Positions 854-58,988 of a DNA stretch of 64,000 bases are shown here, in pieces (the first letter of the stretch is position 1; every line of letters starts with the position of its first letter). Source of the DNA: Candidatus Babeliales bacterium. Lineage in GTDB: Bacteria; Babelota; Babeliae; Babelales; CAIQNR01. The stretch covers positions 670,567 through 734,566 of the forward strand of contig DALYEP010000001.1 in NCBI GenBank assembly GCA_031972475.1. Direction: 5' to 3'. A program made the translations under genes and the position numbers. Under the pieces are notes generated by a model, which saw only the letters and a list, made by a program, of their open reading frames with translations, did no database searches and was not told the DNA's origin.

Positions 854-929
854 TGGAGCGGAAGACGGGATTCGAACCCGCGACCTTTGCCATGGCAAGG
901 CAACGCTCTACCAGCTGAGCTACTTCCGC
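854..929 (-). tRNA. tRNA-Gly (anticodon GCC), CCA encoded
   Basis: The reverse complement GCGGAAGTAGCTCAGCTGGTAGAGCGTTGCCTTGCCATGGCAAAGGTCGCGGGTTCGAATCCCGTCTTCCGCTCCA folds as a cloverleaf. It has a 7-bp acceptor stem, anticodon stem TTGCC/GGCAA, loop TTGCCAT (anticodon GCC) and a TTCGAAT T-loop. Confidence 0.93.
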
Positions 930-1694: not shown

Positions 1695-3008
1695 ATGTTT
1701 TCTGATCTTCTTTATAATCTTTGTTCTAATATCGATGAATTTTTTATACTTCCATCTCTGTTTATGTTTTTAAGTATTGGGATTTTTCTCACCTTAAAAA
1801 CAAAATTTATTCAATTGAGAGCTTTTTCTCATTTTTTACATTTACTTTCAAAAGGAGTTAAGCATAAACATTCTAATAATGAAAAATCTATTAATCCTTT
1901 TCATGCGCTTTTAACTTCGATGGCAACAACAATAGGAATGGGTAATATTGTAGGCCCAACAATTGCGATAAGCACAGGTGGCCCAGGAGCGCTTTTTTGG
2001 TTATTAAGCTATTCTTTTTTTGGTGCAGTTATAAAATATACAGAAGTTTCCTTTGCTATAAAATTTAGAACTCGTCTTGCATCGGGCGTTTTAATTGGAG
2101 GTCCAACACAGTATCTTAGACAAGTGAGTAATTTTTTAGCATCGTGGTATGGATTTATAACAGTATTTTTATTTGCTGGATGGTCAGGGTTGCAAGCAAA
2201 CACGCTGGCAACTATATTCGCTCTTGAATCGGTCCCAAAAAGTATCACAGGTCTTGTTTTAGCAACAATTGTATTTTTAGTTGTTAGAGGGGGCATAGTT
2301 CGTATTGGTGAAATTGCAAGTAAACTAGTTCCTTTGATGTTTGTTATGTATGTTACATTCACTCTTAGTATTATACTGACAAACATTTCTTCTTTATGGG
2401 ATTCTCTTTGTTTAGTTTTTTCATCTGCGTTTTCTCCAAGCGCTGCGGTTGGAGGATTTGCTGGAGCATCTGTTATTTCTGCAATGCGTCAAGGAATTAA
2501 TAGAAATATTTATATCACAGAAGCTGGGCTTGGCACTTCAAGCATTGCGCATTCAATGGCTGATGCAGAGCATGGATCGGATCAAGCAATTTTAGCTATG
2601 TATTCTATTATAGCCGATACATTTTTAATGGCACTTTCTGGGCTTTTAATTTTAGTTACTGGAGTGTGGAGTCGCGGTGCATTTAGCAATACGCTTGTTT
2701 ATGAAATTTTTAAAACATACTCGCCAGGAATTGGAAAATGGGTTTTGCTTTTAAGTGTTATGTTGTTTGTTCTTACTACGGTAATAGGCAATAGTTTTAA
2801 TGCGAGTCAAAGCTTTGCGTCTTTAACGCGGTATCGTTTTATGAATTGGTACTATTTATTTTTAGCAACAGTTGTTGTTTTTGGAGCACATGCACAAGTA
2901 CCACTTGTTTGGAAAATTATGGATGTTATGCAAATTATGGTTGCAATTCCTCATATTATCGGTCTTTTTATTTTAAGTATTAAACGAAATGATGTTTTAA
3001 AATTGTAA
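1695..3008 (+). CDS. Alanine/glycine:cation symporter (AGCS family)
   Basis: 437-aa polytopic membrane protein with the AGCS signature INPFHALLTSMATTIGMGNIVGPTIAISTGGPGALFW. Confidence 0.85.
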   Translation: MFSDLLYNLCSNIDEFFILPSLFMFLSIGIFLTLKTKFIQLRAFSHFLHLLSKGVKHKHSNNEKSINPFHALLTSMATTIGMGNIVGPTIAISTGGPGALFWLLSYSFFGAVIKYTEVSFAIKFRTRLASGVLIGGPTQYLRQVSNFLASWYGFITVFLFAGWSGLQANTLATIFALESVPKSITGLVLATIVFLVVRGGIVRIGEIASKLVPLMFVMYVTFTLSIILTNISSLWDSLCLVFSSAFSPSAAVGGFAGASVISAMRQGINRNIYITEAGLGTSSIAHSMADAEHGSDQAILAMYSIIADTFLMALSGLLILVTGVWSRGAFSNTLVYEIFKTYSPGIGKWVLLLSVMLFVLTTVIGNSFNASQSFASLTRYRFMNWYYLFLATVVVFGAHAQVPLVWKIMDVMQIMVAIPHIIGLFILSIKRNDVLKL

Positions 3009-3374
3009 TTATTGTTCTTGAATAATAATTACAGTAGGTCTACTTGTTTCATGATTTGAATTTTTCTCTCCCTCAAGTGTTGTTTTTAAAAACATTCGAT
3101 CCAGGGTGTTTTGACTAGCGCGCCCTGAGGCGAGCGCTTCTTTTCGGGCATTTTCTTTACTAGTTTCATCTTGCTCTAATGCTTCATTTAACTTTCCTAC
3201 AGCTTCTAAAATTTTCTGAGTATGATCATCAAATTTTTTTATTAATGAATGATTTGCGCTTTTTATATTAATGGTAATGCTCAAAGGTATGATAAATTTT
3301 ATATATATCATCCGAGACGAAATCTTTTTTATGGTTTTTTTTAAAAAAATTATAAAAAATTTTTTAATATTCAT
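3009..3374 (-). CDS. Hypothetical small protein with a hydrophobic N-terminus
   Basis: 121-aa ORF lying tail-to-tail with the symporter. It has a basic/hydrophobic N-terminus and a charged C-terminal half. I recognise no family. Confidence 0.4.
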   Translation of the reverse strand: MNIKKFFIIFLKKTIKKISSRMIYIKFIIPLSITINIKSANHSLIKKFDDHTQKILEAVGKLNEALEQDETSKENARKEALASGRASQNTLDRMFLKTTLEGEKNSNHETSRPTVIIIQEQ

Positions 3375-3453: not shown

Positions 3454-5655
3454 TTATATATTTTCAAATTCTTGCAATTGATTTTTTGTGATATAAGAAT
3501 TTTTTCTATGTTTCTCAATTCCAAGATTTACGATTTTATCAATTAGTTCCATTGGTTTGATTCCGACCTCCGCTGCTTGATGAAATAAACATGTTGCGGG
3601 AGTGAGTGCTGGAAGTGAATTAATTTCTAAAATAACAATACGATCATTTTTTGTAGGGCTTTCTTCTGCTTTTTGATAAAAACAGTCGATACGTGCATAC
3701 CCAGAACATCCAACGGCAATATAAACTTGTTCAATTATTTTTTTAATAAATATTAAGACATCGTTTGAAAGTGGCGCCGGCGTTTGATTTTCTCCAGCCC
3801 CTGGTAAAAATTTTTCTTCAATGCTTAATATACCATTACTTGCAACAGCTTGACTTGGAGGAAGAGCTTGTACTTTGTTTTCATTTCCTATTACCCCTAC
3901 CGTAAGCTCCATTCCTATAATGCATTCTTCTATAAGCGCATAGTCTTTATTATTAGAAAATATTAATTCAATCGCATCTGAAAGTTCACTTTCATCTTTA
4001 GCTTTTGAAACCATGACGCTACATCCATCATCATGAGGTTTTATAATAATAGGAAAAGAAATTAAATTTTGAATTTCTTTTAATTTTTGATTTTTATTAA
4101 TGTTCCATTCATTTTTTTTAAGCAAGATTCCTTTTGGAACATCAAATCCTTCTGTTTTTAAAAAAGTATTTGTTTCATATTTATTCATAGCAAGGGCGCT
4201 TGCAAGGACGGAAGATCCATTATAAGGCATTTTAAGCATTTCTAGCATGCCTTGAACAGCTCCATTTTCACCAAAGCCTCCATGGAGCGCAATAAAAATA
4301 AAATCAAACTTTTCTGGTAATGAAGACCAGGTTATTTTTTTTGATCTATCAAGATCATATTCAATTTCTGATGTAGTGTTATGAACAAGTAGTTTTTGAT
4401 CAAGTGGATAGATGTCCATTTTAGAGTCAAGAAATAAAGGAGTTACTTCATACTTTTCTGGAGAGAGTTTGTAACAAACATTTCTTCCTGAGTTTAGCGA
4501 TGTTTCTTTTTCATTAGAATTTCCTCCTAGAAGGACTCCAATTCGTATTTTTTTATTAAGAGAGATGTTCATATTTTCTTTAGTATTTTTAGAACTAGTA
4601 ACGTTATAATTTTTAAATTCACTCTCAATTAAATAGTTGATAATTTCTGTGTGGCTCATATTTAATTGCGCAGCTTGGTTAAAAAAGAAGCTTGAAGGAG
4701 CCATTCCGCAAAGAGTATTAGGATCAATAATAACTATTGATCCATCTTTTTTTAAAAAACCATCAATACGAGATATTGTTGAAAAGTGAAGTGCATTCAT
4801 AACCGCAAGGCAGGTTTCTTGAATTTTTAAAGAATCTTTTTCTGAGCAGCGTGCAGGGGTGAATTTTTGCGCATATCCAGGCATGTATTTATGTTCAAAA
4901 TCAAGAATATGCGAGCCTTGATTAAGTGTTAATTCTGTTGGTGGTAACGCAAGGATATTTCCTGTTTTAGGGTTTATGAGAGTTACACAAGTAAATTCCA
5001 TCCCTTCTATTTTTTCTTCTATTAAAACTGGTTGTTCGCTGTGAGGATCTATTTTCATTGCATATTCTATGCCAGAAATAAGTTGCTCTTTGTTTAGTGC
5101 TATACGAACGCCTAGGCTTGAACCTTCTTGTGCTGGCTTTATTACAAGAGGGTAATCGAGGTTGTTTTCTTCTAATAGTTTTAAGATGATTGATTCTGAA
5201 AGTTGCTCTGAAGTTATAGTTACTGATTTGGGGGTTGTAATGTTATGGGATTGAAGTATTTTTTTTTGAATTGATTTATTCATTCCTAAAGCGCTTCCAA
5301 GAATTTTTGAACCTAGATAAGGAATGTTTAAAACCTCAAGAGTTCCTTGTAGGCATCCATCTTCTGCATAACGTCCATGTTGGGCAATGTATATAAAATC
5401 AACATATTTTTTAAGATCGTCCCAAGTTATTAATGTTGCTTCTTTATGCAGTCTATGTTCAAAGTCTTTTATCTTTCCTCGATATAAAAAACTCCATGGT
5501 AATAAATAAAGCTTGTTGTTTTGAGATTGAAAAAGTGGAATTGCATTATAGCGATTTGTATCAAGATGATCACAAATAGTTCGACCAGAACTTAACGAAA
5601 CTTCTTTTTCAATTGACATTCCACCCATCAAAACGCCGATTTTTGCTATATGCAT
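3454..5655 (-). CDS. ddl: Tandem D-alanine--D-alanine ligase fusion (two complete Ddl/ATP-grasp modules in one polypeptide)
   Basis: 733 aa. Module 1 (aa 1-345) starts KIGVLMGGMSIEKEVSLSSG. Module 2 (aa 369-733) starts KIRIGVLLGGNSNEKETSLNSG. Each has the HG..GEDG-type motif (AQHGRYAEDG / ALHGGFGENG), an ATP-grasp core and an RID...N C-terminal motif. Confidence 0.85.
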   Translation of the reverse strand: MHIAKIGVLMGGMSIEKEVSLSSGRTICDHLDTNRYNAIPLFQSQNNKLYLLPWSFLYRGKIKDFEHRLHKEATLITWDDLKKYVDFIYIAQHGRYAEDGCLQGTLEVLNIPYLGSKILGSALGMNKSIQKKILQSHNITTPKSVTITSEQLSESIILKLLEENNLDYPLVIKPAQEGSSLGVRIALNKEQLISGIEYAMKIDPHSEQPVLIEEKIEGMEFTCVTLINPKTGNILALPPTELTLNQGSHILDFEHKYMPGYAQKFTPARCSEKDSLKIQETCLAVMNALHFSTISRIDGFLKKDGSIVIIDPNTLCGMAPSSFFFNQAAQLNMSHTEIINYLIESEFKNYNVTSSKNTKENMNISLNKKIRIGVLLGGNSNEKETSLNSGRNVCYKLSPEKYEVTPLFLDSKMDIYPLDQKLLVHNTTSEIEYDLDRSKKITWSSLPEKFDFIFIALHGGFGENGAVQGMLEMLKMPYNGSSVLASALAMNKYETNTFLKTEGFDVPKGILLKKNEWNINKNQKLKEIQNLISFPIIIKPHDDGCSVMVSKAKDESELSDAIELIFSNNKDYALIEECIIGMELTVGVIGNENKVQALPPSQAVASNGILSIEEKFLPGAGENQTPAPLSNDVLIFIKKIIEQVYIAVGCSGYARIDCFYQKAEESPTKNDRIVILEINSLPALTPATCLFHQAAEVGIKPMELIDKIVNLGIEKHRKNSYITKNQLQEFENI

Positions 5656-9429: not shown

Positions 9430-10362
9430 GTGAATAAAAAAAGATATTTTTTATGTGGGATAGTTTTAATAAGTCAGGCTTTTGGAACTTCTAGTTTTGT
9501 TACAGAGTCTTACTCTACAAGCTCTTCTTTTAAAGAAGATATGGTGAATGGAAAATTAATAAAATCTGAAAAATTACATAAAAGTAGTAATAATAAAACA
9601 GCAGGTAAGGATGGCAAAATTATTTATCAAAAATTTGATAATAATAAAGATGAGCAAGTGCAAGATCCTTTTTTAGGTATAAAAACTTCTGGAGAAGATT
9701 ATTTTAATTACAACACCCAATCTTCTATTGATAAAAAAATGATAAAATTAGTTACAGGCTCATGTTCAATTACCGACTTTGGAAGTGGTTTTACCGATCG
9801 TCAAGTTGCTATTGTAAAAAAGAATGCGGCAAAAAATGTTTCAGGAGATTTTTTGTTTGGAATTTTTAATTCTTCAAATGATGCAGTTACTATGAATGCA
9901 GAAAGTGCATTAATTCAAGCTTTTCATCAAGGAGACAATAAGCCTGATATAGAAATCATGATTGATGCTTTAGAGAATATTAAAGAATTTAGTGAAGATA
10001 ATAATTATAAAGATTTTTTTGGTGTAGGAATGGCTATTTTACGCGATCTTACTTCTAGAAAAGAGCTGACTGTTTGGTGCCCTTTTAATTGTAAGGCAGC
10101 TGTTTTTTCTAAAAGAAATATTAGTGATTGTGATGATATGGTCTGTTTTAAAAGCATATCAAAAGGAGATATTATTATTTTTGGAACAAATAACTTTTGG
10201 GAAAAAATTGATTCAAATGAAGCAATAAAGATTGCAAAAAAAGATTTTAAAAAAGTTTCATATGCAAAATCTGCTATTGATGTAGCAGAAAAATTAGTGA
10301 TTACAGCTCGGACAAGAGGTTGTAACGAGGCAATGAATGTACTTGTTGTTTATATTTTGTAA
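9430..10362 (+). CDS. Exported PP2C/PPM-like protein with substituted metal-binding residues (putative pseudophosphatase)
   Basis: GTG start 6 nt after AAGGAG, with signal peptide MNKKRYFLCGIVLISQAFG. The PP2C motif order is conserved: FLFGIFNSSNDA (compare FGVFDGHGG), LTVWCPFNCKAAVF (compare VANVGDSRAVL), GDIIIFGTNNFWEKI (compare LILASDGLWD) and RGCNEAMNVLVVYI (compare GSKDNITVIVV). Confidence 0.5.
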   Translation: MNKKRYFLCGIVLISQAFGTSSFVTESYSTSSSFKEDMVNGKLIKSEKLHKSSNNKTAGKDGKIIYQKFDNNKDEQVQDPFLGIKTSGEDYFNYNTQSSIDKKMIKLVTGSCSITDFGSGFTDRQVAIVKKNAAKNVSGDFLFGIFNSSNDAVTMNAESALIQAFHQGDNKPDIEIMIDALENIKEFSEDNNYKDFFGVGMAILRDLTSRKELTVWCPFNCKAAVFSKRNISDCDDMVCFKSISKGDIIIFGTNNFWEKIDSNEAIKIAKKDFKKVSYAKSAIDVAEKLVITARTRGCNEAMNVLVVYIL

Positions 10363-22429: not shown

Positions 22430-22807
22430 GGGGGCGCACTGGTTTCGACGTGTTATTAAAGTTTGCAGAAGCATGCCGAGCTTTTATTGAGTGCTCGTAA
22501 AACAAACAGTAAAAACATAAATGCAAACAATGTATTTGCAAACCAAGCGGTTGCCGCTGCTTAACTTTAATAGTTAAACAGTCTTGTCTGATTAAACATG
22601 CTCATATGTTGAAAAAGACTCGTATAATAAAAAAAATGAGACTGCTGTAGTAGGTTATACCCGTTTGTAGTGCAGCAGGATACCAACGTGTCTTAAAGTA
22701 TCTTCCCGTTTTCCAGGTAATATTTTAAGAATTTTTGGAAACTAAGCATGTAGCGTCTGTTTTCGGTAATTTTACGGACATGGGTTCGATTCCCATCGCC
22801 TCCACCA
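22430..22807 (+). ncRNA. ssrA: tmRNA (SsrA), one-piece; predicted tag ANNVFANQAVAAA
   Basis: 5' GGGGGCG pairs with 3' CGCCTCC followed by ACCA, and includes the G3:U alanine identity pair. GGTTCGATTCCC forms the T-arm. The tag reading frame GCA AAC AAT GTA TTT GCA AAC CAA GCG GTT GCC GCT GCT TAA occupies 22523-22564. Confidence 0.9.
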
Positions 22808-23648
22808 TTCCCATATGTTCCATTAAAACATTTTTATCTAAGTAAAAATTTAATTTGTAGTCAGAGTGCTCTGCACAAATATCACGTAATATAGTGTCAA
22901 ATTTTTTATCAAAAAAATTCATATAAATTCTTATAATTTTTTTAAAATTTTCTGATAAATTGATTTTTTCATACATTTTTCTTTCTGGATAATACTTATA
23001 ATGTTGTAAATAAATATCGCAACCAGAAGTAGTTATCACTATTTGCTTTAAAAAAAATTCTTGGTCTATGAGTCTTTTATTAGAATGTTTTTCATACGCT
23101 AATAAAGATTTTTCTAGCTGCATTATATCACAAAAAAAACTTGCAAAGTCATCATCTATAGAGCTTTCGTTTATTAAATTATCATCATAATCATCATCTA
23201 CATTAGCTGGCGAGTTTAATCTTAGAAGTTCTTTTTCGCTAAATAATTCTGGATAAGGGCACTCTTCCTCTTCGCTTAATTCTAAATATTCACCTGCAAG
23301 ATTAAATCTCTCTTCAAAATTAAAATCTGTATCATTTATAGTTGAAGGTTTAAAAAACTTACTCATTTTAATTGCTAATTCTTTAATAAGAGATTCTCTA
23401 TCGGGGGTGCTTTTGGTTATTTCTTTTTTTAGTAATTGGCTGAAAATTGTATTTCTTGAAGAAGATTTGGATCTTATTGCTTGAGTTATAAGATCTCCAA
23501 GAAATTCTTCTCTTAATGATAATGATTGGTTTATTTCTTGAAATTCTAATTCGGGGTTTTGATCAAGGCAAAGGCGTTTTGGTTCAAAAGAAGATTCTTG
23601 TGCAAAACAATTATGTAATGCTAATAAAAATATTAATCTATAAAACAT
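22725..23648 (-). CDS. Hypothetical exported acidic protein; its 3' end runs antisense into the tmRNA gene
   Basis: 307 aa with signal peptide MFYRLIFLLALHNCFAQES and a D/E-rich middle. The last ~27 codons (22725-22807) are complementary to the tmRNA 3' domain. Confidence 0.5.
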   Translation of the reverse strand: MFYRLIFLLALHNCFAQESSFEPKRLCLDQNPELEFQEINQSLSLREEFLGDLITQAIRSKSSSRNTIFSQLLKKEITKSTPDRESLIKELAIKMSKFFKPSTINDTDFNFEERFNLAGEYLELSEEEECPYPELFSEKELLRLNSPANVDDDYDDNLINESSIDDDFASFFCDIMQLEKSLLAYEKHSNKRLIDQEFFLKQIVITTSGCDIYLQHYKYYPERKMYEKINLSENFKKIIRIYMNFFDKKFDTILRDICAEHSDYKLNFYLDKNVLMEHMGMVEAMGIEPMSVKLPKTDATCLVSKNS

Positions 23649-29899: not shown

Positions 29900-29907
<8 letters not shown>

Positions 29908-51062: not shown

Positions 51063-52256
51063 GTGTGTATGCGTCCAGTTATGGTAGTTGTAGGCACAAG
51101 GCCAGAAGGTATTAAAATGATGCCTGTATATTTTGCATTAAAACAAGCAAATATACCTACTATTTTATGCGCTACTTCTCAACACAATTCGTTATTATCT
51201 GACATTTTTTCTGTTTTTGGCGTTACCCCTGATATTGATTTAAAAATAATGAGACATAATCAGGATTTATTTTATATAACAACTATTGTTTTGAATGAAA
51301 TGCAAAGTCTCTTTAAAGATCATCAACCTTCATTGATTTTTGTTCAAGGAGATACTACTACAGTAATGGCTACTGGAATGGCTGCTTTTTATAGTCATAT
51401 TCCTGTTGCGCATGTAGAAGCAGGTTTGCGTACCGGAGATTTTAATGCTCCTTATCCAGAAGAGTTTAACAGGGTTGTTTTGAGCCTTATGAGTACATAT
51501 CATTTTGCCCCTACAGCACAATCCTGTGCACATTTAATGACTGAAGGGCGAAAAAGAGAAAATATTTTTTGTGTGGGAAATACAGTAGTTGATGCATTGA
51601 GAATTATTGAAAATAAAATTTTAAATAAAGAGTTATTGATAGATTCTTCTGTACAAAATTTTTTTAAAAATGCTCATGAGTCTGGTTGTAATACATTGTT
51701 ATTTACCATGCACAGAAGAGAGTCTTTTAGTTATGGTCTATATATCATGCTTCAAGCTCTTAAAGATTTTGCTTTAACTCATCCTAATGTTGCAATTTTG
51801 TATCCATACCATCCTAATCCAGAAGTGCTTGAAGCTATAAAAAAGATTAATTTTACTTCTGTTAAAAATATTATGTTAATGGAGCCTTTATCTTATAAAG
51901 ATTTAGCTTATGTTTTGCTTACTGTTGATATAGTTGCAACTGACTCTGGAGGTATTCAAGAGGAAGCTGTAAGCCTAGGAAAACAGGTTTTAGTGTTGCG
52001 AGAAAAAAGTGAAAGAATGGAGGGGGTATGGGAGGGTCTTGCAGTTATTATTGGATTTAACCCTGAAAAGTTTTTATTAACTCTTGAAAAGTTTTTAAAT
52101 AACATTTCACTAGTTTTTGTAAGAAAAAATATTTACGGTGATGGTTTTGCATCGGAAAAAATTGTGAAAATTATTCAAAATCAGTGTTTAGATTATTTAG
52201 AAAAATCTACATCAGGATTGAAGAATGTACATCGTGTACATGAGGAGATGCGATAA
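51063..52256 (+). CDS. wecB: UDP-N-acetylglucosamine 2-epimerase (non-hydrolysing)
   Basis: VVVGTRPEGIKMMPV, VQGDTTTVMATGMAAFY..IPVAHVEAGLRT and TDSGGIQEEA are canonical WecB/MnaA motifs. The likely start is ATG 51069. Confidence 0.9.
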   Translation: MCMRPVMVVVGTRPEGIKMMPVYFALKQANIPTILCATSQHNSLLSDIFSVFGVTPDIDLKIMRHNQDLFYITTIVLNEMQSLFKDHQPSLIFVQGDTTTVMATGMAAFYSHIPVAHVEAGLRTGDFNAPYPEEFNRVVLSLMSTYHFAPTAQSCAHLMTEGRKRENIFCVGNTVVDALRIIENKILNKELLIDSSVQNFFKNAHESGCNTLLFTMHRRESFSYGLYIMLQALKDFALTHPNVAILYPYHPNPEVLEAIKKINFTSVKNIMLMEPLSYKDLAYVLLTVDIVATDSGGIQEEAVSLGKQVLVLREKSERMEGVWEGLAVIIGFNPEKFLLTLEKFLNNISLVFVRKNIYGDGFASEKIVKIIQNQCLDYLEKSTSGLKNVHRVHEEMR

Positions 52257-53623
52257 TGAAAAAAGTATGTGTAGTAGGGATGGGATATATAGGTCTTCCT
52301 ACTGCTATTTTAGCAGCGCAATCAGGCTTTATGGTGGTAGGAATTGATGTTGATGTAAAAAAAATTAAAAGTATTAATTCTATGAAGTCCCCAATAGAAG
52401 AGCCAGGAATAGAGAAAAGATTAATACATGTTGTTTCAAGTGGACATTTAAAAGCTCAAGATTATTATGAATCGGCTGATTATTATATAATTGCTGTACC
52501 TACTCCTTTTACTTCTGATAAAAAAGCTGATCTTTCATATGTTTTTGATGCAGCTCGTTCTGTTGCAAAAGTTCTTAAAAAGGGCGATACCGTTATTTTA
52601 GAATCAACCGTTCCAGTTAAAACTACAAAAATATTAGCAGAGCTTTTAGGACAAGAATCAAAATTGCAATTTGGAGCAGATTTTTTTGTTGCTCACTGTC
52701 CAGAACGTGTTCTTCCTGGAAATATTTTTCATGAACTTCAAGTAAATGATCGTATCATAGGCGGTATTGATCGAGGTTCTACTCATCATGTTGCAACATT
52801 TTATAAAAATTTTGTTAGTGGTGATTTGTATCTTACTTCAGCAGAAGCTGCAGAGATGATAAAACTTGTTGAAAATGCATATCGTGATGTTAACATTGCC
52901 ATATCGCATCAAGTAGCTTCTATGGCTCATGAAATGGCGCTTGATCCTTATGAAATTATTGAACTTGCAAATAAGCATCCTAGAGTACAACTTTTAAAAC
53001 CTACATGTGGAGTTGGAGGTCATTGTTTAGCGGTTGATCCTTGGTTTTTAATTGAATCATTTCCACAACATACAGGACTTCTTAAGGCTGCACGTAATGT
53101 TAATGATGCAAGGCCATTTGAGCTGGTTGATCGGATTGAAAAAAAAGTTAAAGATTGGAAGAGTCTTCATGAAAAAGACTCTTGTTCGGTGTTGATTTTA
53201 GGACTTACTTATAAAGCAAATGTTGATGATATTCGTGAATCACCGGCTCTTACTATTGCAAAAGAATTAGTAAGTAAAAAAGATTTTGATCTTTTAATAT
53301 GTGATCCACATGTTGAATCAAGTCGAATTGATAGCGTTCTTGCAAATTGCAAAATAGCCCTTGCTGAAGGTCTTGAAAAGGCTGATATAATAGTATCGCT
53401 TGTTGCGCACGATGAATTTAAAGGTATAGATAAAAAAATTATTACACACAAAAAAGTTTTAGATTTTTGTGGAGTATTTCATTTAGGGCGAAAGCATTCA
53501 TGCAATCAAGAACAATTTTTTTGGCCTGCTGAAGTCTTTAATACGTCTTATTCTGATGATGAAATTTCATCATATAAATTACAAGAATTTGGAGCATCAA
53601 GAGATAGGAGTAAAATCCAATGA
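52256..53623 (+). CDS. wecC: UDP-N-acetyl-D-mannosamine dehydrogenase-like (UDP-glucose/GDP-mannose dehydrogenase family)
   Basis: N-terminal Rossmann VCVVGMGYIGLPTA, catalytic-Cys region GVGGHCLAVDP, and a C-terminal UDP-binding domain. It overlaps the wecB stop by 1 nt. Confidence 0.85.
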   Translation: MKKVCVVGMGYIGLPTAILAAQSGFMVVGIDVDVKKIKSINSMKSPIEEPGIEKRLIHVVSSGHLKAQDYYESADYYIIAVPTPFTSDKKADLSYVFDAARSVAKVLKKGDTVILESTVPVKTTKILAELLGQESKLQFGADFFVAHCPERVLPGNIFHELQVNDRIIGGIDRGSTHHVATFYKNFVSGDLYLTSAEAAEMIKLVENAYRDVNIAISHQVASMAHEMALDPYEIIELANKHPRVQLLKPTCGVGGHCLAVDPWFLIESFPQHTGLLKAARNVNDARPFELVDRIEKKVKDWKSLHEKDSCSVLILGLTYKANVDDIRESPALTIAKELVSKKDFDLLICDPHVESSRIDSVLANCKIALAEGLEKADIIVSLVAHDEFKGIDKKIITHKKVLDFCGVFHLGRKHSCNQEQFFWPAEVFNTSYSDDEISSYKLQEFGASRDRSKIQ

Positions 53624-55785
53624 GACAAATTTTTTTAGAAAACGGAGCACTTGTTGTTCATAATGTAGCTCAACCTTCTTTGGAAGAGCGTTCAATTTTG
53701 GTTTCTGTTCATTATTCATTTATTAGTTCAGGAACAGAAGCTGCAACAATATCTAATGCTCAACAAAGTCCTTTGTTCTCTAATATTCCTCATAAAATTA
53801 AAGCTGTTTTAAAATCTCTTGCTCAAAATGGTGTAGAAGGCACTCAAGCTCTTATCAGTAGTCGACTTAAAGGAACTTTACAGCCACTGGGTTATTCATG
53901 TTCCGGAAAAGTAATTGCTGTTGGTAAAAAAGTTACAAAATTTAGATTGGGTGATTTTGTTGCATGTGCAGGAGCTGGATGGGCAAATCATGCCGATGTT
54001 GTTTGTATTCCAGAAAATTTAGCTGTAGCAATTCCAGATGAGTCTATAGTTAAGCATGCAAGTGTTACGACTATTGGAGCTATTGCTTTGCAAGGTGTAA
54101 GGCGAGCTCAAGTACAACTGGGTGAAATTGTAGCAGTTGTTGGCTTAGGACTTCTTGGTCAAATAACTGTTGAGTTATTAAAAAATGCAGGCTGCACGGT
54201 AATAGGAATTGATTTTTTAGAAGATCGTTTGAATCTAGCAAAAGAACTTGGTGCTGATTATGTTTTTGCAAATTCAGATCAAGTGCAAAAAGAGATTGAA
54301 TTTTTAACAAAACATAAAGGTGTTGATTGTACTTTGATTACTGCTGCAACAGAAAGTAGTCAAGTAGTTCAAACAGCAATGGAGTATACTCGTAGAAAAG
54401 GGCGGGTTGTTGTTGTTGGAGATGTTGGTCTTAATTTGCAAAGAAACCCTCTTTATAAAAAAGAAATTGATTTTTTAATTTCATGTTCTTATGGTCCTGG
54501 TCGTTACGACACAGCGTATGAAATAGATGGATGTGATTATCCTTATGAATATGTAAGATGGACAGAAAATAGAAATATGGAAGCTATAGTTTCTTTGATT
54601 AAAAGTAAAAAGCTTTCGGTAGGAAAGTTTGCATCTCAAGAATTTCATATAGAAGATGTCGCTCAAGCGTATGAAAAAATAAAATCAAAAGAGGCTTTGG
54701 GGATTATTTTAAAATATACCCCAAAGAGTGATATTGCATTTGTTCCTGCAATTAAAAGTGCTTCAAAAGAAAAATTTATAAAATTCCCTCATTTTACTGA
54801 AAGTCAGAATATTAGAGTTGGATTTATAGGTGTTGGGGGTTTTGCTCAAGTAAAATTATTGCCAGTAGTTTCTAAAGTTAAAAATGTTAAAATAGCAGCA
54901 ATTGTTGATGCAAATATTGCTAATGCAGAAAATACAAGCCGTACTTATGGCGCGGCTGTTTCGTTGGTTAATGATACAGAGCTTTTTGAAAAAGATTTAG
55001 TGGATGCTGTTGTTATTGCATCGCCTCATAGTTTTCATTGTGATCAAATTATTGAAGCATTGCAGCATGGTAAAGCGGTTTTTGTAGAAAAGCCTATGGT
55101 AACAACTTTTGATCAGCATCAAAAATTAAGCGCTTTCTTAAACAAGCATCCAGAAGTGCCTTTTTGTGTTGATTACAATCGATCATTTGCCCCTTTTATT
55201 CAAAAAATAAAGCATGAAATAGTGGGGAGAAAAACTCCTGTAATTATTAGATATCGTATGAATTCTGGTTATATTCCAGGAAGCCACTGGGTTCAAACTG
55301 ATATGGGAGCAGGAAGATTAATAGGTGAGGCTTGTCATATATTTGATCTATTTTGTTTTTTAACAGGATCAGAAGTTGCAAGCGTTTCTGCAGAAGCAAT
55401 TAAGCCTTTAAGTGATAATCTTTTTCCAACAGATAATTTTTCTGTTCAAATTTCTTTTAAAGATGGATCTTTATGTTCTTTGCTTTATACAGCATTAGGT
55501 CATAGTGGACTTGGTAAAGAGCATATGGAAGTTTTTTATGATGGAAAATCTATAGTTATGGATGATTATAAAAAATTAGAAGGATATGGGGTTTCAAAAA
55601 GCTTTAATGAAGTTATGACATTTCAAGATAAAGGGCATAACTTCATTATTAATAAATTTTTTAATGGATTGCGCACGGAAAATAAAACTATGCCAATTTC
55701 TATAGAACGATTGAATGCTGTTTCTGAGCTTACTTTAATTATTGATAAACTTGTATGCCAAGGTGGTGGCGAACAACAATTTTAA
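53620..55785 (+). CDS. Bi-domain oxidoreductase (N-terminal MDR/alcohol-dehydrogenase-like, C-terminal Gfo/Idh/MocA-like)
   Basis: 721 aa. An MDR-type Rossmann (VAVVGLGLLGQITVELLK) sits in the first half. A second Rossmann (IRVGFIGVGGFAQVKLLP) and EKPM, typical of Gfo/Idh/MocA, sit in the second half. ATGA overlap with wecC. Confidence 0.8.
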   Translation: MRQIFLENGALVVHNVAQPSLEERSILVSVHYSFISSGTEAATISNAQQSPLFSNIPHKIKAVLKSLAQNGVEGTQALISSRLKGTLQPLGYSCSGKVIAVGKKVTKFRLGDFVACAGAGWANHADVVCIPENLAVAIPDESIVKHASVTTIGAIALQGVRRAQVQLGEIVAVVGLGLLGQITVELLKNAGCTVIGIDFLEDRLNLAKELGADYVFANSDQVQKEIEFLTKHKGVDCTLITAATESSQVVQTAMEYTRRKGRVVVVGDVGLNLQRNPLYKKEIDFLISCSYGPGRYDTAYEIDGCDYPYEYVRWTENRNMEAIVSLIKSKKLSVGKFASQEFHIEDVAQAYEKIKSKEALGIILKYTPKSDIAFVPAIKSASKEKFIKFPHFTESQNIRVGFIGVGGFAQVKLLPVVSKVKNVKIAAIVDANIANAENTSRTYGAAVSLVNDTELFEKDLVDAVVIASPHSFHCDQIIEALQHGKAVFVEKPMVTTFDQHQKLSAFLNKHPEVPFCVDYNRSFAPFIQKIKHEIVGRKTPVIIRYRMNSGYIPGSHWVQTDMGAGRLIGEACHIFDLFCFLTGSEVASVSAEAIKPLSDNLFPTDNFSVQISFKDGSLCSLLYTALGHSGLGKEHMEVFYDGKSIVMDDYKKLEGYGVSKSFNEVMTFQDKGHNFIINKFFNGLRTENKTMPISIERLNAVSELTLIIDKLVCQGGGEQQF

Positions 55786-56007
55786 TAAATGACATTGTTT
55801 ATATATGAATATAAAAAATATTTTTATGAACAGTATTTTTTTGTTTTTTATTTGATCCATAATGTTTTAGAAGTATGTAGTTTATCTAAATTTATTAGAT
55901 TATACAGCTCACCTATTAAGCTTCTTGCTTATTTCTATAGCCAAGAGTATCGTTTAAAGCTGCATTTTATTCAAACTATTTTGCTGTAGTAATAAAAAGG
56001 GAAGCAT

Positions 56008-57030
56008 ATGAAAGATGTTCGAGTGCATGCAGTTATTTTGGCTGGTGAAAAAGGTGAGCTTCTATGGCCATTGAGTAGAAAAAATCATCCTAAGCAGACA
56101 TTGCCTTTTATTGAAGATACATCACTTCTTGAACAAACTATTGAAAGAATAGCTTTTCATATTCCAAAGCAGCGTCGTTGGATTGTAACTAATGTGGAAT
56201 ATCAAGATTTTATTATAGAAAAATTAGATCATTTGGTTGCTGGTATTATTGTAGAGCCAGAGTTTAGAGATACTGCTTCTGCTATGATGCTTGCAGCATC
56301 ATTAATTACTCAACAAGATCCTGATGCCTTATTGCTTTTTTTGCCATCAGATCATTATATTCCTCAAAAAGATCTTTTTTGGGAATTTGTTCATCATGCT
56401 GTAGATTATGTTTCTACTTATCAAAAAATTACGCTTTTTGCTTTGCCTGCTTTATATCCTTCAACTGATTATGGTTATATAGAATGCGCTTCTCAAGAAG
56501 ATTATCCTTCTCTTATTAAAAATTTTTATAAAAATCCTACTTTAGAGTCTGCGCATAAATATTTTAATTTAGGTTATATGTGGAATACAGGAATAGCTGT
56601 TGTTGAGGCAAAAGTTTTTATTGATATAGTAAAAAAACTTTCAATAGAGGTTTTTGAAGCAGTTTCTAGTTATGTTGAAGGATGTGGTAATTACTCTGAA
56701 TCTCCCTCTCTTTCTTTTGAGTCTCTTTTTGTAAGCGGTATTAATTATATTACCGCATTACCATTTAATTTTATTTGGCAAGATATTGGTAATTTAGAAA
56801 GATTTTTGTCTTTAAAGAATGCATTAAAACCTGATGAAAATTTTATACAAATTGATGCGAAAGATAATTTGGTAGAAGCTGAAGGATCATTGGTTGCCGT
56901 TGTTGGCGTTGACAATCTTTGTATCATAAAAAAAGATGATATTTTATTAATAGTACATCGCGATCAGGTTGAAAAAGTAAAACAAATTATAGATACCCTC
57001 AAAAAGGGTCATAAAGAGGAATATTTATAA
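56008..57030 (+). CDS. Sugar-1-phosphate nucleotidyltransferase (mannose-1-phosphate guanylyltransferase-like, no cupin/PMI domain)
   Basis: HAVILAGEKGELLWPLSRKNHPKQ matches the ManC-type G.G.RLWPLSR..PKQ motif. 340 aa. Confidence 0.75.
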   Translation: MKDVRVHAVILAGEKGELLWPLSRKNHPKQTLPFIEDTSLLEQTIERIAFHIPKQRRWIVTNVEYQDFIIEKLDHLVAGIIVEPEFRDTASAMMLAASLITQQDPDALLLFLPSDHYIPQKDLFWEFVHHAVDYVSTYQKITLFALPALYPSTDYGYIECASQEDYPSLIKNFYKNPTLESAHKYFNLGYMWNTGIAVVEAKVFIDIVKKLSIEVFEAVSSYVEGCGNYSESPSLSFESLFVSGINYITALPFNFIWQDIGNLERFLSLKNALKPDENFIQIDAKDNLVEAEGSLVAVVGVDNLCIIKKDDILLIVHRDQVEKVKQIIDTLKKGHKEEYL

Positions 57031-57031
57031 T

Positions 57032-58987
57032 ATGTGTGGATTTGCTGGTTATATAAAAACAACATCTAAAGAATTTTTAATTGATGAAAAGCTTTTTCAT
57101 TCTCTTCATACGCGCATTTCTCATAGAGGACCTGATGCTTATAAAGTATGGTTTGATAAAGATCTTGAGATTGCACTTATTCATAGAAGATTAAGTATTG
57201 TTGATTTAAGCGATGCTGGGATTCAGCCTATGTTTGACAAGCAACAATCTGTAGTGATTTGTTTTAATGGAGAAATTTATAATTACAAAGCATTGCGGAT
57301 TGAACTTGAAGGTCTTGGGTATCAGTTTGTATCAAAATCTGATACAGAAGTTTTTTTATATGCATTTAAACAATGGGGTATTGCGTGCCTTGATAAATTA
57401 GAAGGTATGTTTTCTGGTCTTTTGGGTAATTTAAAAACAGAAGAATGGTACTTGTTTCGGGATCGTATGGGAATCAAACCTTTATATTTCTCTCTTAAAG
57501 GTGGTTATATAAGTTTTGCTTCAGAGATTAAATCCCTAGTAGAGCTTCCTTGGATTACAAAAAAACTTAATGAGCGAGCGATGTATCATTATTTAACATA
57601 TATGGTAACGCCAGCTCCATTAACTCTTTATGAAGGTATTTATAAATTACCAGCTGCTCATTATATTAAAATTGATCCCTATAAAAATGTAACATTTCAT
57701 GAATGGTATTCATTTTTAAAGCCGAGTATTGTCTATGATAAAAAAGATTTAAATAATGAAGAATTCTGTATTGCAACAATTCGAACATTATTAAAAGAAG
57801 CTGTTCAAAAGCGTATGATAGCAGATGTCCCTTTTGGTGTTTTTTTGTCAGGTGGTATTGATTCTAGTTTGAATGTAGCTTTAATGTCTGAATTTACAGA
57901 TAAAGTTAAAACATTTAATGTTTCTTTTTCTGATGGCCAAGAGTATTCAGAAATTGCTTGGGCACGTAAAGTATCAAAAATTTATAATACAGAACATTAT
58001 GAAATTACCATTTCAGAGAAAGAGGCATTTCAGTTTTTTGAAAAAATGGTTGATTATCAAGATGAGCCGCTGGCTGATTGTGTTTGTATTCCATTGTATT
58101 ATGTATCAAAATTATTAAAAGATTCAGGTGTTACAGTGGTTCAAGTTGGGGAAGGCTCAGATGAACTTTATTGTGGCTATCAAAATTATGTTAATTATGT
58201 AGATGCTTATAAAAAATATTATCAACCTGCTCGTTATATACCTCAATCAGTAAAACAGGCAGGCGTTTGGCTTGCTGCACAAATTTTCCCTTCTAAGACT
58301 TATCATAGATCGCTTCTTGAGCAGTGGGCTTCGGGGCGTCATTTGTTTTGGAGTGGTGCAATGGCGTTTCAAGAATTACAAAAAAAGACTTTTTATACAA
58401 AAATTAATCAATCAGAATATGATCCTGTTCTTGAAAAAATTTATCCTGGATTTGATCAATCATTTGATAGTTATGCAGTTGTTGATTATCACTTAAAAAA
58501 GTTGTACCAAGAAGACCCATCGGCAGATTTTTTGAAGTCGATTACTTATTTAGAACTTAAGCAACGATTACCAGAGCTTCTTTTAATGCGCGTTGATAAA
58601 ATGACGATGGCAACTTCTGTAGAAGGGCGTGTTCCTTTTTTAGATCATAAGCATGTTGAATTTGCTCTTCAGATTCCTAGCCATTTAAAATATAAAAATG
58701 GTCAAGCTAAATATATTTTAAAAAAAGCGTGCGAAGGCATTTTGCCACATGATGTTATTTATCGTAAAAAGGTTGGATTTGCAGCTCCTATAACGCGGTG
58801 GTTTAAGGAGGGTGTTTATTTTAAACCCTATTTTAAAGAGATTATGAAAAAGAAACTGAATAACCATTCATCGTTTTTAAATGAATTTGAAATAGAAACT
58901 ATGCTTAGCAAAACAGAGCTTGGACTTGTCGATCATTCTGTTCATTTATGGGTAACTCAAAATCTTCTATCTCATGAATTAATATAA
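57032..58987 (+). CDS. Asparagine synthase (glutamine-hydrolysing)-family amidotransferase (WbpS-like)
   Basis: N-terminal nucleophile MCGFAGY (Ntn glutaminase) and PP-loop FLSGGIDSS. 651 aa. It is embedded in the glycan operon. Confidence 0.85.
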   Translation: MCGFAGYIKTTSKEFLIDEKLFHSLHTRISHRGPDAYKVWFDKDLEIALIHRRLSIVDLSDAGIQPMFDKQQSVVICFNGEIYNYKALRIELEGLGYQFVSKSDTEVFLYAFKQWGIACLDKLEGMFSGLLGNLKTEEWYLFRDRMGIKPLYFSLKGGYISFASEIKSLVELPWITKKLNERAMYHYLTYMVTPAPLTLYEGIYKLPAAHYIKIDPYKNVTFHEWYSFLKPSIVYDKKDLNNEEFCIATIRTLLKEAVQKRMIADVPFGVFLSGGIDSSLNVALMSEFTDKVKTFNVSFSDGQEYSEIAWARKVSKIYNTEHYEITISEKEAFQFFEKMVDYQDEPLADCVCIPLYYVSKLLKDSGVTVVQVGEGSDELYCGYQNYVNYVDAYKKYYQPARYIPQSVKQAGVWLAAQIFPSKTYHRSLLEQWASGRHLFWSGAMAFQELQKKTFYTKINQSEYDPVLEKIYPGFDQSFDSYAVVDYHLKKLYQEDPSADFLKSITYLELKQRLPELLLMRVDKMTMATSVEGRVPFLDHKHVEFALQIPSHLKYKNGQAKYILKKACEGILPHDVIYRKKVGFAAPITRWFKEGVYFKPYFKEIMKKKLNNHSSFLNEFEIETMLSKTELGLVDHSVHLWVTQNLLSHELI

Positions 58988-58988
58988 T

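What the first reader, a model, noticed from the sequence alone, without database searches (positions are those of the whole stretch)
3454..5655. Two complete D-Ala-D-Ala ligase modules fused in one polypeptide, each with a different active-site deviation
Ddl normally works as a homodimer of ~300-360-aa subunits. Here one 733-aa ORF encodes two full modules joined by a ~20-aa S/N/K-rich linker (aa 346-368).

A by-eye alignment to E. coli DdlB shows two differences. Module 1 keeps the omega-loop Lys-Tyr (FEHKYMPG) but has D-P-N (VIIDPN) where the Mg-binding E-x-N normally sits. Module 2 keeps E-I-N (ILEINS) but has Lys-Phe (IEEKFLPG) at the Tyr216 position.

Phe at that position is the established hallmark of D-Ala-D-lactate-forming ligases in intrinsically glycopeptide-resistant lactic acid bacteria. 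The fusion could therefore be a covalent pseudo-dimer with divided labour. Alternatively it may carry two specificities, dipeptide versus depsipeptide or another D-amino acid.
Basis: partly seen in the sequence, partly recalled or inferred. Interest (0 to 1): 0.6.

Follow-up and report, generated by a model that had tools for sequence, protein, structure and literature searches.

The report
Conserved two-module D-Ala-D-Ala ligase fusion
This gene is a real, widely conserved fusion of two different D-alanine–D-alanine ligase (cell-wall enzyme) modules that differ at exactly four active-site positions, a bacterial enzyme class that has apparently not been described and probably includes the 'double DDL' of plants.

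Summary
ORF 3454-5655 (-) encodes 733 aa with two complete Ddl modules and a ~20-aa linker. Aligned to PDB-verified DdlB, VanA and LmDdl2, module 1 has D311-P-N313 at E270-x-N272.

It is not an artefact or recent duplication. At least 120 full-length homologues (Dependentiae/Babeliales) keep every one of these residues. Of the 150 best 50%-identity clusters, 119 are tandem Ddl-Ddl proteins, including Bacteroidota such as Pontibacter. N modules and C modules form separate clades, apart from seven characterised ligases.

Across 351 aligned columns, the two types differ in a fixed way at only four positions (150, 216, 270, 281), all in the active site.

A split lineage carries N-type then C-type genes, with alr directly upstream in the three loci examined. 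Other proteins fuse the pair to MurF, or to MurF plus alanine racemase.

Best reading: an ancient covalent heterodimeric peptidoglycan D-Ala-D-Ala ligase with both sites catalytic and functionally asymmetric. A physiological D-Ala-D-lactate role is possible but lacks contextual support. A new variant of a known kind; the biochemistry is untested.

The parts
3454..5655 (-). Complete tandem ddl-ddl ORF (733 aa plus stop codon)
   Evidence: ORF listing and translation. It is the only Ddl-like ORF in the 64-kb window. An identical protein, P0001, comes from a 790-kb contig.
4606..5655 (-). N-type Ddl module (aa 1-350). It has the canonical E16/S179/Y257 triad, K256, R296, D298 and S322. D311-P-N313 replaces E270-x-N272, and F323 sits at L282.
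   Evidence: Pfam and NCBIfam matches. Alignment to DdlB. D at the E270 position occurs in 120/120 Dependentiae homologues and in 98% of 119 N modules across all groups.
4552..4605 (-). Linker (aa ~351-368; S/N/K-rich, poorly conserved)
   Evidence: Residues 356-363 have pLDDT below 50. Mean pairwise identity is 34% in the linker, against 62-66% in the modules. Its length is 19-29 aa in 120 homologues.
3457..4551 (-). C-type Ddl module (aa 369-733). It has E382, K615, R655, D657 and E677-I-N679. C545 sits at S150, F616 at Y216, T688 at S281 and C689 at L282.
   Evidence: Pfam and NCBIfam matches. Alignment. C, F and T occur in 120/120 Dependentiae homologues and in 96-99% of 119 C modules.
4723..4725 (-). 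Codon GAT = D311, at the Mg-ligand position E270 of DdlB
3808..3810 (-). Codon TTT = F616, at the omega-loop position Y216 of DdlB
4021..4023 (-). Codon TGT = C545, at the position of S150 of DdlB
3592..3594 (-). Codon ACA = T688, at the position of S281 of DdlB
1695..3008 (+). Neighbouring sodium:alanine symporter (AGCS family), convergent with ddl-ddl. It may supply alanine; no functional link is shown.
   Evidence: Pfam Na_Ala_symp, E 7e-81. It lies downstream of ddl-ddl in 12 of about 42 Dependentiae loci.

Best explanation
The gene encodes the peptidoglycan D-alanine-D-alanine ligase of a Dependentiae (TM6/Babeliales) bacterium, in an ancient heteromeric form. An 'N-type' and a 'C-type' Ddl paralogue are joined by a short flexible linker.

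Inferred: the two modules pack against each other as an intramolecular equivalent of the usual Ddl homodimer. Each module keeps a full ATP-grasp catalytic set, so each should bind ATP and Mg2+, phosphorylate one D-Ala and couple it to a second substrate. The dipeptide then goes to MurF.

Shown: the two active sites are deliberately different. The N-type site keeps the canonical substrate pocket (E15/S150/Y216, S281) but has Asp instead of Glu at Mg-ligand position 270. The C-type site keeps Glu270 but has C150, F216 and T281 in the substrate pocket.

Inferred: this asymmetry reflects some division of labour, in kinetics or substrate range, whose nature is unknown. The main product is D-Ala-D-Ala.
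For: Shown:
- Both modules are complete Ddl domains.
- The catalytic residues K97, K144, E187, K215, R255, D257 and N272 are conserved at 97% or more in both module types, across 238 modules that are only 22-46% identical between classes.
- The fusion is a single ORF in 77 of 80 species-level loci and in 119 of the 150 best 50%-identity clusters. These span Dependentiae, Bacteroidota and a third group.
- N modules form one clade (74% bootstrap) and C modules another (99%). Both are separate from seven characterised ligases, which group at 91%.
- Of 351 aligned columns, only positions 150, 216, 270 and 281 carry a different residue conserved at 90% or more in each type.
- A split lineage has an N-type gene upstream of a C-type gene in all 30 loci that hold two full ORFs. 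Alanine racemase lies directly upstream.
- Natural fusions exist: DdlN-DdlC-MurF, and DdlN-DdlC-MurF-Alr. The MurF parts score 323 and 357 bits against TIGR01143, above its 288.6 cut-off.
- The AlphaFold model has pLDDT 90.5 and pTM 0.87, with only the linker disordered.
- Both halves are about equally conserved, at 62% and 66% mean identity.

From the literature:
- A cultured Dependentiae species has a complete mur pathway (PMC6561590).
- Plant DDL is also a two-DDL fusion (PMC9954125). Loss of the moss gene blocks D-Ala dimerisation for peptidoglycan (PMC9954125). The moss precursor pentapeptide matches that of typical Gram-negative bacteria (PMC9434261).
Against: - No enzymology exists for any member of this family.
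- The pseudo-dimer packing rests on pTM alone. I had no coordinates or PAE to compare with a Ddl homodimer.
- I could not check whether this genome also carries an ordinary ddl.
- Each module on its own scores just under the NCBIfam subfamily cut-offs. The N module scores 236 bits (cut-off 243) and 231 (cut-off 245.65). The C module scores 225.6 (cut-off 245.65) and 224.5 (cut-off 243).
- Glu270-to-Asp might weaken Mg2+ binding in the N module.
- F216 is the change that gives DdlB depsipeptide activity (PMC3378904). I recall that S150A does the same, and the C-type module is also changed at position 150. D-Ala-D-Ala as the sole product is therefore not assured.
- The tree is neighbour-joining with only seven outside references.
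- Plant membership in the N/C-type family was not tested.
Confidence: 0.72

Rival explanations
1. Dual-product enzyme. The N-type module makes D-Ala-D-Ala. The C-type module (F216, C150) physiologically makes D-Ala-D-lactate or another D-Ala-D-X product, giving mixed or switchable peptidoglycan termini.
For: - F616 sits exactly at Y216, and C545 replaces S150.
- Phe versus Tyr at this position decides depsipeptide versus dipeptide activity in lactic acid bacteria, and Y216F gives DdlB depsipeptide activity (PMC5996685, PMC3378904).
- Three of the four type-defining positions lie in the substrate pocket of the C-type module.
Against: - C-type modules are a separate clade from the only lactic acid bacterial reference, LmDdl2, and from VanA.
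- VanA-type and D-Ala-D-Lac NCBIfam models score 105-147 bits for either module, far below their cut-offs of 550-775.
- The partners are alanine racemase and MurF. I saw no D-lactate dehydrogenase or VanX-like gene among the ORFs I annotated.
- The signature is universal in Bacteroidota and Dependentiae.
- The moss pentapeptide is reported as typical of Gram-negative bacteria (PMC9434261). Plant membership in this family is only inferred.
Confidence: 0.15
2. One module is a catalytically weak or inert partner. The leading candidate is the N-type with Asp at the Mg site; the alternative is the C-type without the H-bond triad. That module would be kept only as the structural or regulatory second subunit of the dimer.
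For: - Glu270 is invariant in all seven characterised references but is Asp in 98% of N modules.
- The E15-S150-Y216 triad is lost in the C module.
- Each module alone scores slightly under the curated family cut-offs.
Against: - All other ATP, Mg and catalytic residues are conserved at 97% or more in both types, despite only 22-46% overall identity between classes.
- Both halves evolve at similar rates.
- Asp keeps the carboxylate.
- Y216F DdlB is an active enzyme whose structure has been solved (1iow; PMC3378904).
Confidence: 0.1
3. The fusion is a frameshift, gene-calling or assembly artefact joining two adjacent ddl genes, or it is a recent tandem duplication.
For: Split adjacent N-type and C-type genes do exist in another lineage.
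Against: - The reading frame is continuous in the window.
- The same architecture, at 56-100% identity and 97-100% coverage, appears in at least 120 proteins from independent assemblies, including Mb-scale contigs and complete chromosomes.
- 77 of 80 loci hold a single ORF.
- The halves are only 35% identical and fall in different clades.
Confidence: 0.01

Closest known systems
E. coli DdlB (PDB 2DLN/1IOV) and other single-module, homodimeric D-Ala-D-Ala ligases
   Same: - Both modules have the same fold and domains. Foldseek target-normalised TM-scores are 0.79-0.92.
- The ATP-grasp catalytic residues are shared.
- The N module keeps the E15/S150/Y216 triad and S281.
   Different: - Two diverged modules sit in one chain, instead of two identical subunits.
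- The N module has Asp at E270.
- The C module has C150, F216, T281 and C282.
- Both modules are only 32-33% identical to DdlB, and they lie outside the clade of seven characterised enzymes.
Leuconostoc mesenteroides LmDdl2 (PDB 1EHI) and other Phe-type D-Ala-D-lactate ligases of lactic acid bacteria
   Same: Phe sits at the Y216 position of the omega loop in the C module.
   Different: - LmDdl2 keeps S150, S281 and L282, whereas the C module has C, T and C.
- Identity to LmDdl2 is only 27%.
- The C module falls in a different clade.
- Here the Phe-type site is always paired with a Tyr-type module.
Plant plastid DDL (Arabidopsis At3g08840, Physcomitrium PpDDL BAE45860, rice BAF22630)
   Same: - It is a fusion of two putative DDL enzymes in one polypeptide, found throughout the plant lineage (PMC9954125).
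- Its nearest bacterial relatives are reported as the FCB/CFB group (PMC9434261, PMC3493653). That is the group in which I found 840-950-aa tandem proteins of this family.
   Different: - The plant protein is eukaryotic, nuclear-encoded and plastid-targeted.
- I could not obtain a plant sequence, so it is untested whether plants share the N-type/C-type signature.
- No plant protein appeared among the 150 best clusters.
Chlamydial MurC-Ddl fusion protein (NCBIfam PRK14573)
   Same: It is a Ddl module fused to another enzyme of the same pathway. JGI names many tandem proteins 'UDP-N-acetylmuramate--alanine ligase', presumably by similarity to this fusion.
   Different: The window protein has no Mur-ligase domain. 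PRK14573 matches only its Ddl part, at 242.6 bits against a cut-off of 1015.

Membership tests
[quoted passage not shown] | Dala_Dala_lig_N plus Dala_Dala_lig_C domain pair | tested here: met
   Both Pfam domains are found twice, above the gathering scores. Each module superposes on solved Ddl chains with target-normalised TM-scores of 0.79-0.92.
[quoted passage not shown] | Score above the curated NCBIfam Ddl cut-offs | tested here: inconclusive
   The whole protein passes, at 455.7 bits against 243 and 451.8 against 245.65. Each module alone falls just short: N at 236 and 231, C at 224.5 and 225.6.
[quoted passage not shown] | ATP/Mg and catalytic residues K97, K144, E180, E187, K215, R255, D257, E270, N272 | tested here: inconclusive
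   The C module has all nine. The N module has eight, with Asp311 in place of E270. This is invariant in the family.
[quoted passage not shown] | Substrate-pocket residues E15-S150-Y216 and S281 | tested here: inconclusive
   The N module has E16, S179, Y257 and S322, so the feature is met. The C module has E382, C545, F616 and T688, so it is not met.
[quoted passage not shown] | ATP-dependent formation of D-Ala-D-Ala | not testable with these tools
   The only support is by association: operon linkage to alr, and natural fusions to MurF and Alr.
Phe-type D-Ala-D-lactate ligases of lactic acid bacteria (LmDdl2 type) | Phe at the DdlB Y216 position | tested here: met
   F616 in the C module aligns with F261 of 1EHI.
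Phe-type D-Ala-D-lactate ligases of lactic acid bacteria (LmDdl2 type) | Rest of the pocket as in DdlA-type enzymes (S150, S281, L282), and phylogenetic placement with them | tested here: not met
   The C module has C545, T688 and C689. C modules form their own clade (99% bootstrap), apart from the reference clade that holds LmDdl2.
Phe-type D-Ala-D-lactate ligases of lactic acid bacteria (LmDdl2 type) | D-Ala-D-lactate as the physiological product | not testable with these tools
I saw no D-lactate-related gene among the ORFs I annotated in the window or in related loci.
VanA/VanB/VanD-type D-Ala-D-lactate and VanC/E/G-type D-Ala-D-Ser ligases | Score above the NCBIfam 'exception' or equivalog cut-offs for Van ligases | tested here: not met
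   For single modules the best scores are VanG 194.7 bits (cut-off 495), D_ala_D_lac 147.8 (cut-off 550) and VanA 120 (cut-off 775).
Plant-type tandem DDL | Two complete Ddl modules in one polypeptide | tested here: met
   The plant architecture is taken from PMC9954125.
Plant-type tandem DDL | Common descent of the fusion (same N-type/C-type signature in plant proteins) | not tested
   No plant sequence could be retrieved. The literature places plant DDL nearest to FCB/CFB bacteria (PMC9434261, PMC3493653).
MurC-Ddl fusion (Chlamydia) | N-terminal Mur ligase (MurC) domain | tested here: not met
   No Mur_ligase domain is present. PRK14573 scores 242.6 bits against a cut-off of 1015 and covers only its Ddl part.

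The most novel reading that the evidence does not exclude
Ddl exists in a second, ancient and so far unrecognised form: an obligate N-type/C-type heteromer. It may be fused, as here and in Bacteroidota, or encoded by paired genes next to alr, and it probably gave rise to the plant double DDL. Its two active sites would have distinct and complementary specificities or kinetic roles, for example a canonical D-Ala-D-Ala site plus a relaxed D-Ala-D-X or depsipeptide site. That asymmetry would be fixed by just four active-site substitutions: S150C, Y216F, S281T and E270D.
Probability: 0.3. Interest if true: 0.75.

Novelty: new variant of a known kind. Interest (0 to 1): 0.58.

Why it matters
Ddl is a textbook homodimeric enzyme. 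It is a validated antibiotic target (D-cycloserine), and it determines which peptidoglycan terminus vancomycin recognises.

A large, ancient family turns out to be built from two unlike modules. They differ only at four active-site positions, one of them the Tyr/Phe switch linked to vancomycin resistance. This suggests an unstudied mode of operation for the enzyme.

It also gives a concrete bacterial counterpart, and a candidate source, for the unexplained 'double DDL' retained by all land plants. That includes angiosperms that lack most of the pathway.

Finally, it supplies cultured, tractable carriers (Pontibacter, Hymenobacter) in which the question can be tested directly.

Tried and rejected
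- **Artefact or frameshift:** rejected.
- **Recent duplication:** rejected.
- **Fetching a plant DDL sequence to test the signature:** this failed. The Hirano 2016 and Machida 2006 papers are not held. The supplement of PMC9954125 holds the sequence only as an image. The AlphaFold-database fold libraries were not available.
- **Broad C-module profile search:** it returned only Dependentiae tandems, because both modules add to the score. Its one useful result was to show the gene in Candidatus Chromulinivorax.
- **Looking up the window protein's contig:** nothing is on record. Cluster look-ups gave no organism names for the closest homologues. The Dependentiae assignment therefore rests on named homologues at 54-60% identity and on shared gene order.
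- **Promoter and terminator scan around the gene:** not above chance.
- **L079:** I first read it as a fused relative of the split lineage. Its ORFs show a split alr-ddlN-ddlC arrangement with a frame-broken ddlC.
- **Literature search for bacterial tandem Ddl:** it found only MurC-Ddl papers. The library is limited to open-access texts.
Full report
**1. Observation**

The window holds one ORF at 3454..5655 on the minus strand: 733 aa, ATG start, no internal stop. Pfam finds the Ddl N-terminal and C-terminal domains twice. NCBIfam Ddl models cover aa 5-345 and aa 367-718. Solved Ddl chains match both halves at E about 1e-38 to 1e-41. It is the only Ddl-like reading frame in the 64 kb.

I wrote out DdlB, VanA and LmDdl2 from memory and checked them against PDB chains 1iov, 1e4e and 1ehi, correcting the few differences. 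I then aligned them with both halves.
- Module 1 has E16, S179, K256, Y257, R296, D298 and S322, all canonical. D311-P312-N313 replaces E270-x-N272, and F323 sits at L282.
- Module 2 has E382, K615, R655, D657 and E677-I-N679. F616 sits at Y216.

The codons are unambiguous: GAT, TTT, TGT and ACA. The linker is aa ~350-368.

**2. Not an artefact, not a recent duplication**

A search of 5.8 billion protein clusters returned at least 120 full-length homologues. They are 725-796 aa long, 56-100% identical and cover 97-100% of the query. The named ones are Candidatus Babeliales, Dependentiae and Chromulinivorax. All 120 carry D at position 270 in module 1, and C150, F216 and T281 in module 2.

In a scan of one genome per species, the C-module motif [LM]T[PA][AS]T[VC][LI][FY][HQ]Q matched at least 600 stretches, and 597 were confirmed as relatives. 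Of the 80 best loci, 77 hold both modules in a single uninterrupted ORF. These include complete chromosomes.

The two halves of the query are 35% identical to each other. Each is 32-33% identical to DdlB.

**3. A large family with two fixed module types**

An exhaustive HMMER search of 1.84 billion cluster representatives gave 150 best hits. Of these, 119 are complete tandem Ddl-Ddl proteins. They fall into three size classes:
- about 705-755 aa, like the Dependentiae proteins;
- 839-946 aa, plus a few longer proteins that carry extra C-terminal parts. Named members are Bacteroidota: MED-G17, Cytophagales, Pontibacter, Hymenobacter, Saprospiraceae and Chitinophagales;
- mostly about 760-830 aa, from unidentified taxa whose members that I inspected look high in G+C.

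All three classes show the same signatures. N modules have S150, Y216, D270, S281 and mostly F282. C modules have C150, F216, E270, T281 and C or V at 282.

In a neighbour-joining tree of 90 sequences with 100 bootstraps, N modules form one clade (74%) and C modules another (99%). Seven characterised ligases form a third clade (91%): DdlB, Salmonella DdlA, S. aureus Ddl, B. anthracis Ddl, VanA, VanG and LmDdl2.

The strongest single result is an unbiased column scan. It covered 351 aligned columns in 119 N modules and 119 C modules. Only four DdlB-mapped positions carry a different residue, conserved at 90% or more, in each type: 150, 216, 270 and 281. All four are active-site residues: two members of the E15-S150-Y216 triad, the Mg ligand, and the ligand of the D-Ala2 carboxylate. 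All seven references have S150, E270 and S281.

Meanwhile K97, E187, K215, R255, D257 and N272 are conserved at 97% or more in both types, and K144 at 97% in N modules and 100% in C modules. The two halves are about equally conserved, at 62% and 66% mean identity among the 120 homologues, against 34% in the linker. This pattern argues that both sites are catalytic and that their difference is selected.

**4. Pathway context**

A single-module C-type protein (P0198) led to 80 metagenome loci. Thirty of them contain two full-length Ddl ORFs. In all 30, the upstream ORF is N-type and the downstream one C-type. Both lie on the same strand, from overlapping by 87 bp (L160) to about 4 kb apart. The pair in L136 is 44% identical.

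Alanine racemase lies directly upstream of the N-type gene in L082, L136 and L079.

Natural 'Rosetta-stone' fusions also exist:
- P0245 is DdlN-DdlC-MurF.
- P0240 (1638 aa) is DdlN-DdlC-MurF-alanine racemase.

Their MurF parts score above the TIGR01143 cut-off.

The pair therefore belongs to the D-Ala branch of peptidoglycan synthesis: Alr, then Ddl, then MurF. A cultured Dependentiae species is reported to have a complete mur pathway (PMC6561590).

In the window itself the neighbours are housekeeping genes. These include orn, priA, ruvA and a convergent sodium:alanine symporter. That symporter recurs next to the gene in 12 of about 42 Dependentiae loci.

**5. Structure**

AlphaFold2, run with a 32-sequence family alignment, gives mean pLDDT 90.5 and pTM 0.87 for the whole 733-aa chain. 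Only residues 356-363 fall below pLDDT 50, with dips at both omega loops.

A pTM this high for a two-module chain implies a confidently fixed arrangement of the two modules. I infer an intramolecular counterpart of the Ddl dimer. I had no coordinates to verify this.

Foldseek against the PDB finds only single-module Ddl chains. Query-normalised TM-scores are about 0.4 and target-normalised scores 0.79-0.92. No tandem Ddl has been solved.

**6. How it most likely works**

Each module is a complete ATP-grasp ligase. The fused protein, or the split pair, acts as a heterodimeric D-Ala-D-Ala ligase that feeds MurF. This rests on the context and conservation shown above; the activity itself is inferred.

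The N site looks canonical for D-Ala-D-Ala but uses Asp rather than Glu as the bridging Mg ligand. The C site has a normal metal site but a more hydrophobic pocket that lacks the H-bond triad.

What this asymmetry achieves is unknown. It could be different substrate ranges, different affinities, or a half-site mechanism.

**7. The D-lactate reading**

The Phe/Tyr rule is well documented for lactic acid bacteria, and Y216F gives DdlB depsipeptide activity (PMC5996685, PMC3378904). From memory, S150A does the same (Park, Lin and Walsh 1996). In-vitro depsipeptide activity of the C site is therefore plausible.

Four points argue against a physiological role:
- C-type modules are a different clade from the one lactic acid bacterial reference, LmDdl2, and differ from it in other pocket residues.
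- Van-type models score far below their cut-offs.
- The conserved partners are Alr and MurF, not D-lactate enzymes.
- The signature is universal in free-living Bacteroidota.

In moss, whose DDL is probably of this family, loss of DDL blocks D-Ala dimerisation (PMC9954125). Its precursor pentapeptide is like that of typical Gram-negative bacteria (PMC9434261). I give this rival about 0.15.

**8. Comparison with what is known**

[quoted passage not shown] Plant DDL has been assigned a Chlamydiae/CFB or FCB origin (PMC3493653, PMC9434261). That is the group where I find the 840-950-aa bacterial tandems.

I could not obtain a plant sequence, so shared descent of the fusion is inferred, not tested.

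In the open-access library I found no description of bacterial tandem Ddl or of the N-type/C-type distinction. The only 'Ddl fusion' papers concern MurC-Ddl. Databases label these proteins Ddl, 'ATP-grasp domain-containing protein' or, wrongly, 'UDP-N-acetylmuramate--alanine ligase'.

**9. Verdict**

The gene is an ordinary member of an extraordinary but unrecognised family. It is a new variant of a known kind of enzyme.

The pseudo-dimer and divided-labour idea is supported in outline. The depsipeptide idea remains a minority possibility.

The main limits are:
- no enzymology;
- no coordinates for the model;
- only seven outside references in a distance tree;
- no check for a second ddl in the genome;
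- no plant sequence.

Noticed in passing
window 1695-3008 (+): A sodium:alanine symporter (AGCS family, Pfam E 7e-81) lies convergent with the ddl-ddl gene. The same symporter plus ruvA lies downstream of ddl-ddl in 12 of about 42 Dependentiae loci. It may be a supply route for alanine in a host-dependent bacterium.
   Followed up: partly
L082 1079-3028, L136 1630-3639, L079 6038-7996: In the split-gene lineage, the alanine racemase directly upstream of the N-type ddl is 649-669 aa long. Residues ~1-375 match Alr. The C-terminal ~280 aa match no Pfam or NCBIfam family.
   Followed up: partly
proteins P0139, and probably P0152, P0165 and P0236 (1224-1285 aa): P0139, a member of the 839-946-aa (Bacteroidota-type) size class, carries a C-terminal extension with a PASTA domain (E 2.7e-16) after a hydrophobic stretch. 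The other three are about the same length, but their extensions were not examined. A cytoplasmic ligase joined to a normally extracytoplasmic peptidoglycan-binding domain is odd.
   Followed up: partly
proteins P0245 (1262 aa) and P0240 (1638 aa): These are natural multi-enzyme fusions: DdlN-DdlC-MurF, and DdlN-DdlC-MurF-alanine racemase. The second places the whole D-Ala branch of peptidoglycan synthesis in one polypeptide.
   Followed up: yes
window 854-929 (-) and 22430-22807 (+): A tRNA-Gly(GCC) gene and a tmRNA gene with tag peptide ANNVFANQAVAAA. The ORFs listed at 732-1053 overlap the tRNA and are spurious.
   Followed up: no
window 51063-63217 (+): A cluster of sugar-nucleotide and polysaccharide genes. 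It includes wecB, UDP-ManNAc dehydrogenase, a 721-aa double oxidoreductase, a mannose-1-phosphate guanylyltransferase-like gene, an AsnB-like amidotransferase, a methyltransferase and a TagH/Wzt-like ABC ATPase. This is notable because a cultured Dependentiae species was reported to lack LPS genes (PMC6561590).
   Followed up: no
window 40079-43261 (-), 22725-23648 (-), 47663-49550 (-), 9430-10362 (+): Several sizeable ORFs match no Pfam or NCBIfam family. They are 1060, 307, 291, 343 and 310 aa long.
   Followed up: no
window 3009-3374 (-): A 121-aa ORF lies 80 bp downstream of ddl-ddl on the same strand. It matches no family and has no tblastn match in any of the 80 related loci. It is either lineage-specific or not a gene.
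   Followed up: partly
loci L002, L004, L007, L008, L010 and others; L020, L046; L063, L077: The record titles of many loci disagree with their content. TM6-like contigs, with 54-59% identical tandem Ddl and shared orn/priA gene order, are titled 'uncultured Pseudomonadota' or 'Saccharimonadales'. Loci with Bacteroidota-type tandems are titled 'Agrobacterium sp.' or 'Sphingomonadales'. These are probably binning or labelling errors.
   Followed up: no
window 32872-36450 (+) and 29900-31525 (+): A 1192-aa protein has only a C-terminal MscS/MscK-like channel domain. A 541-aa protein is a HerA/VirB4-like ATPase.
   Followed up: no
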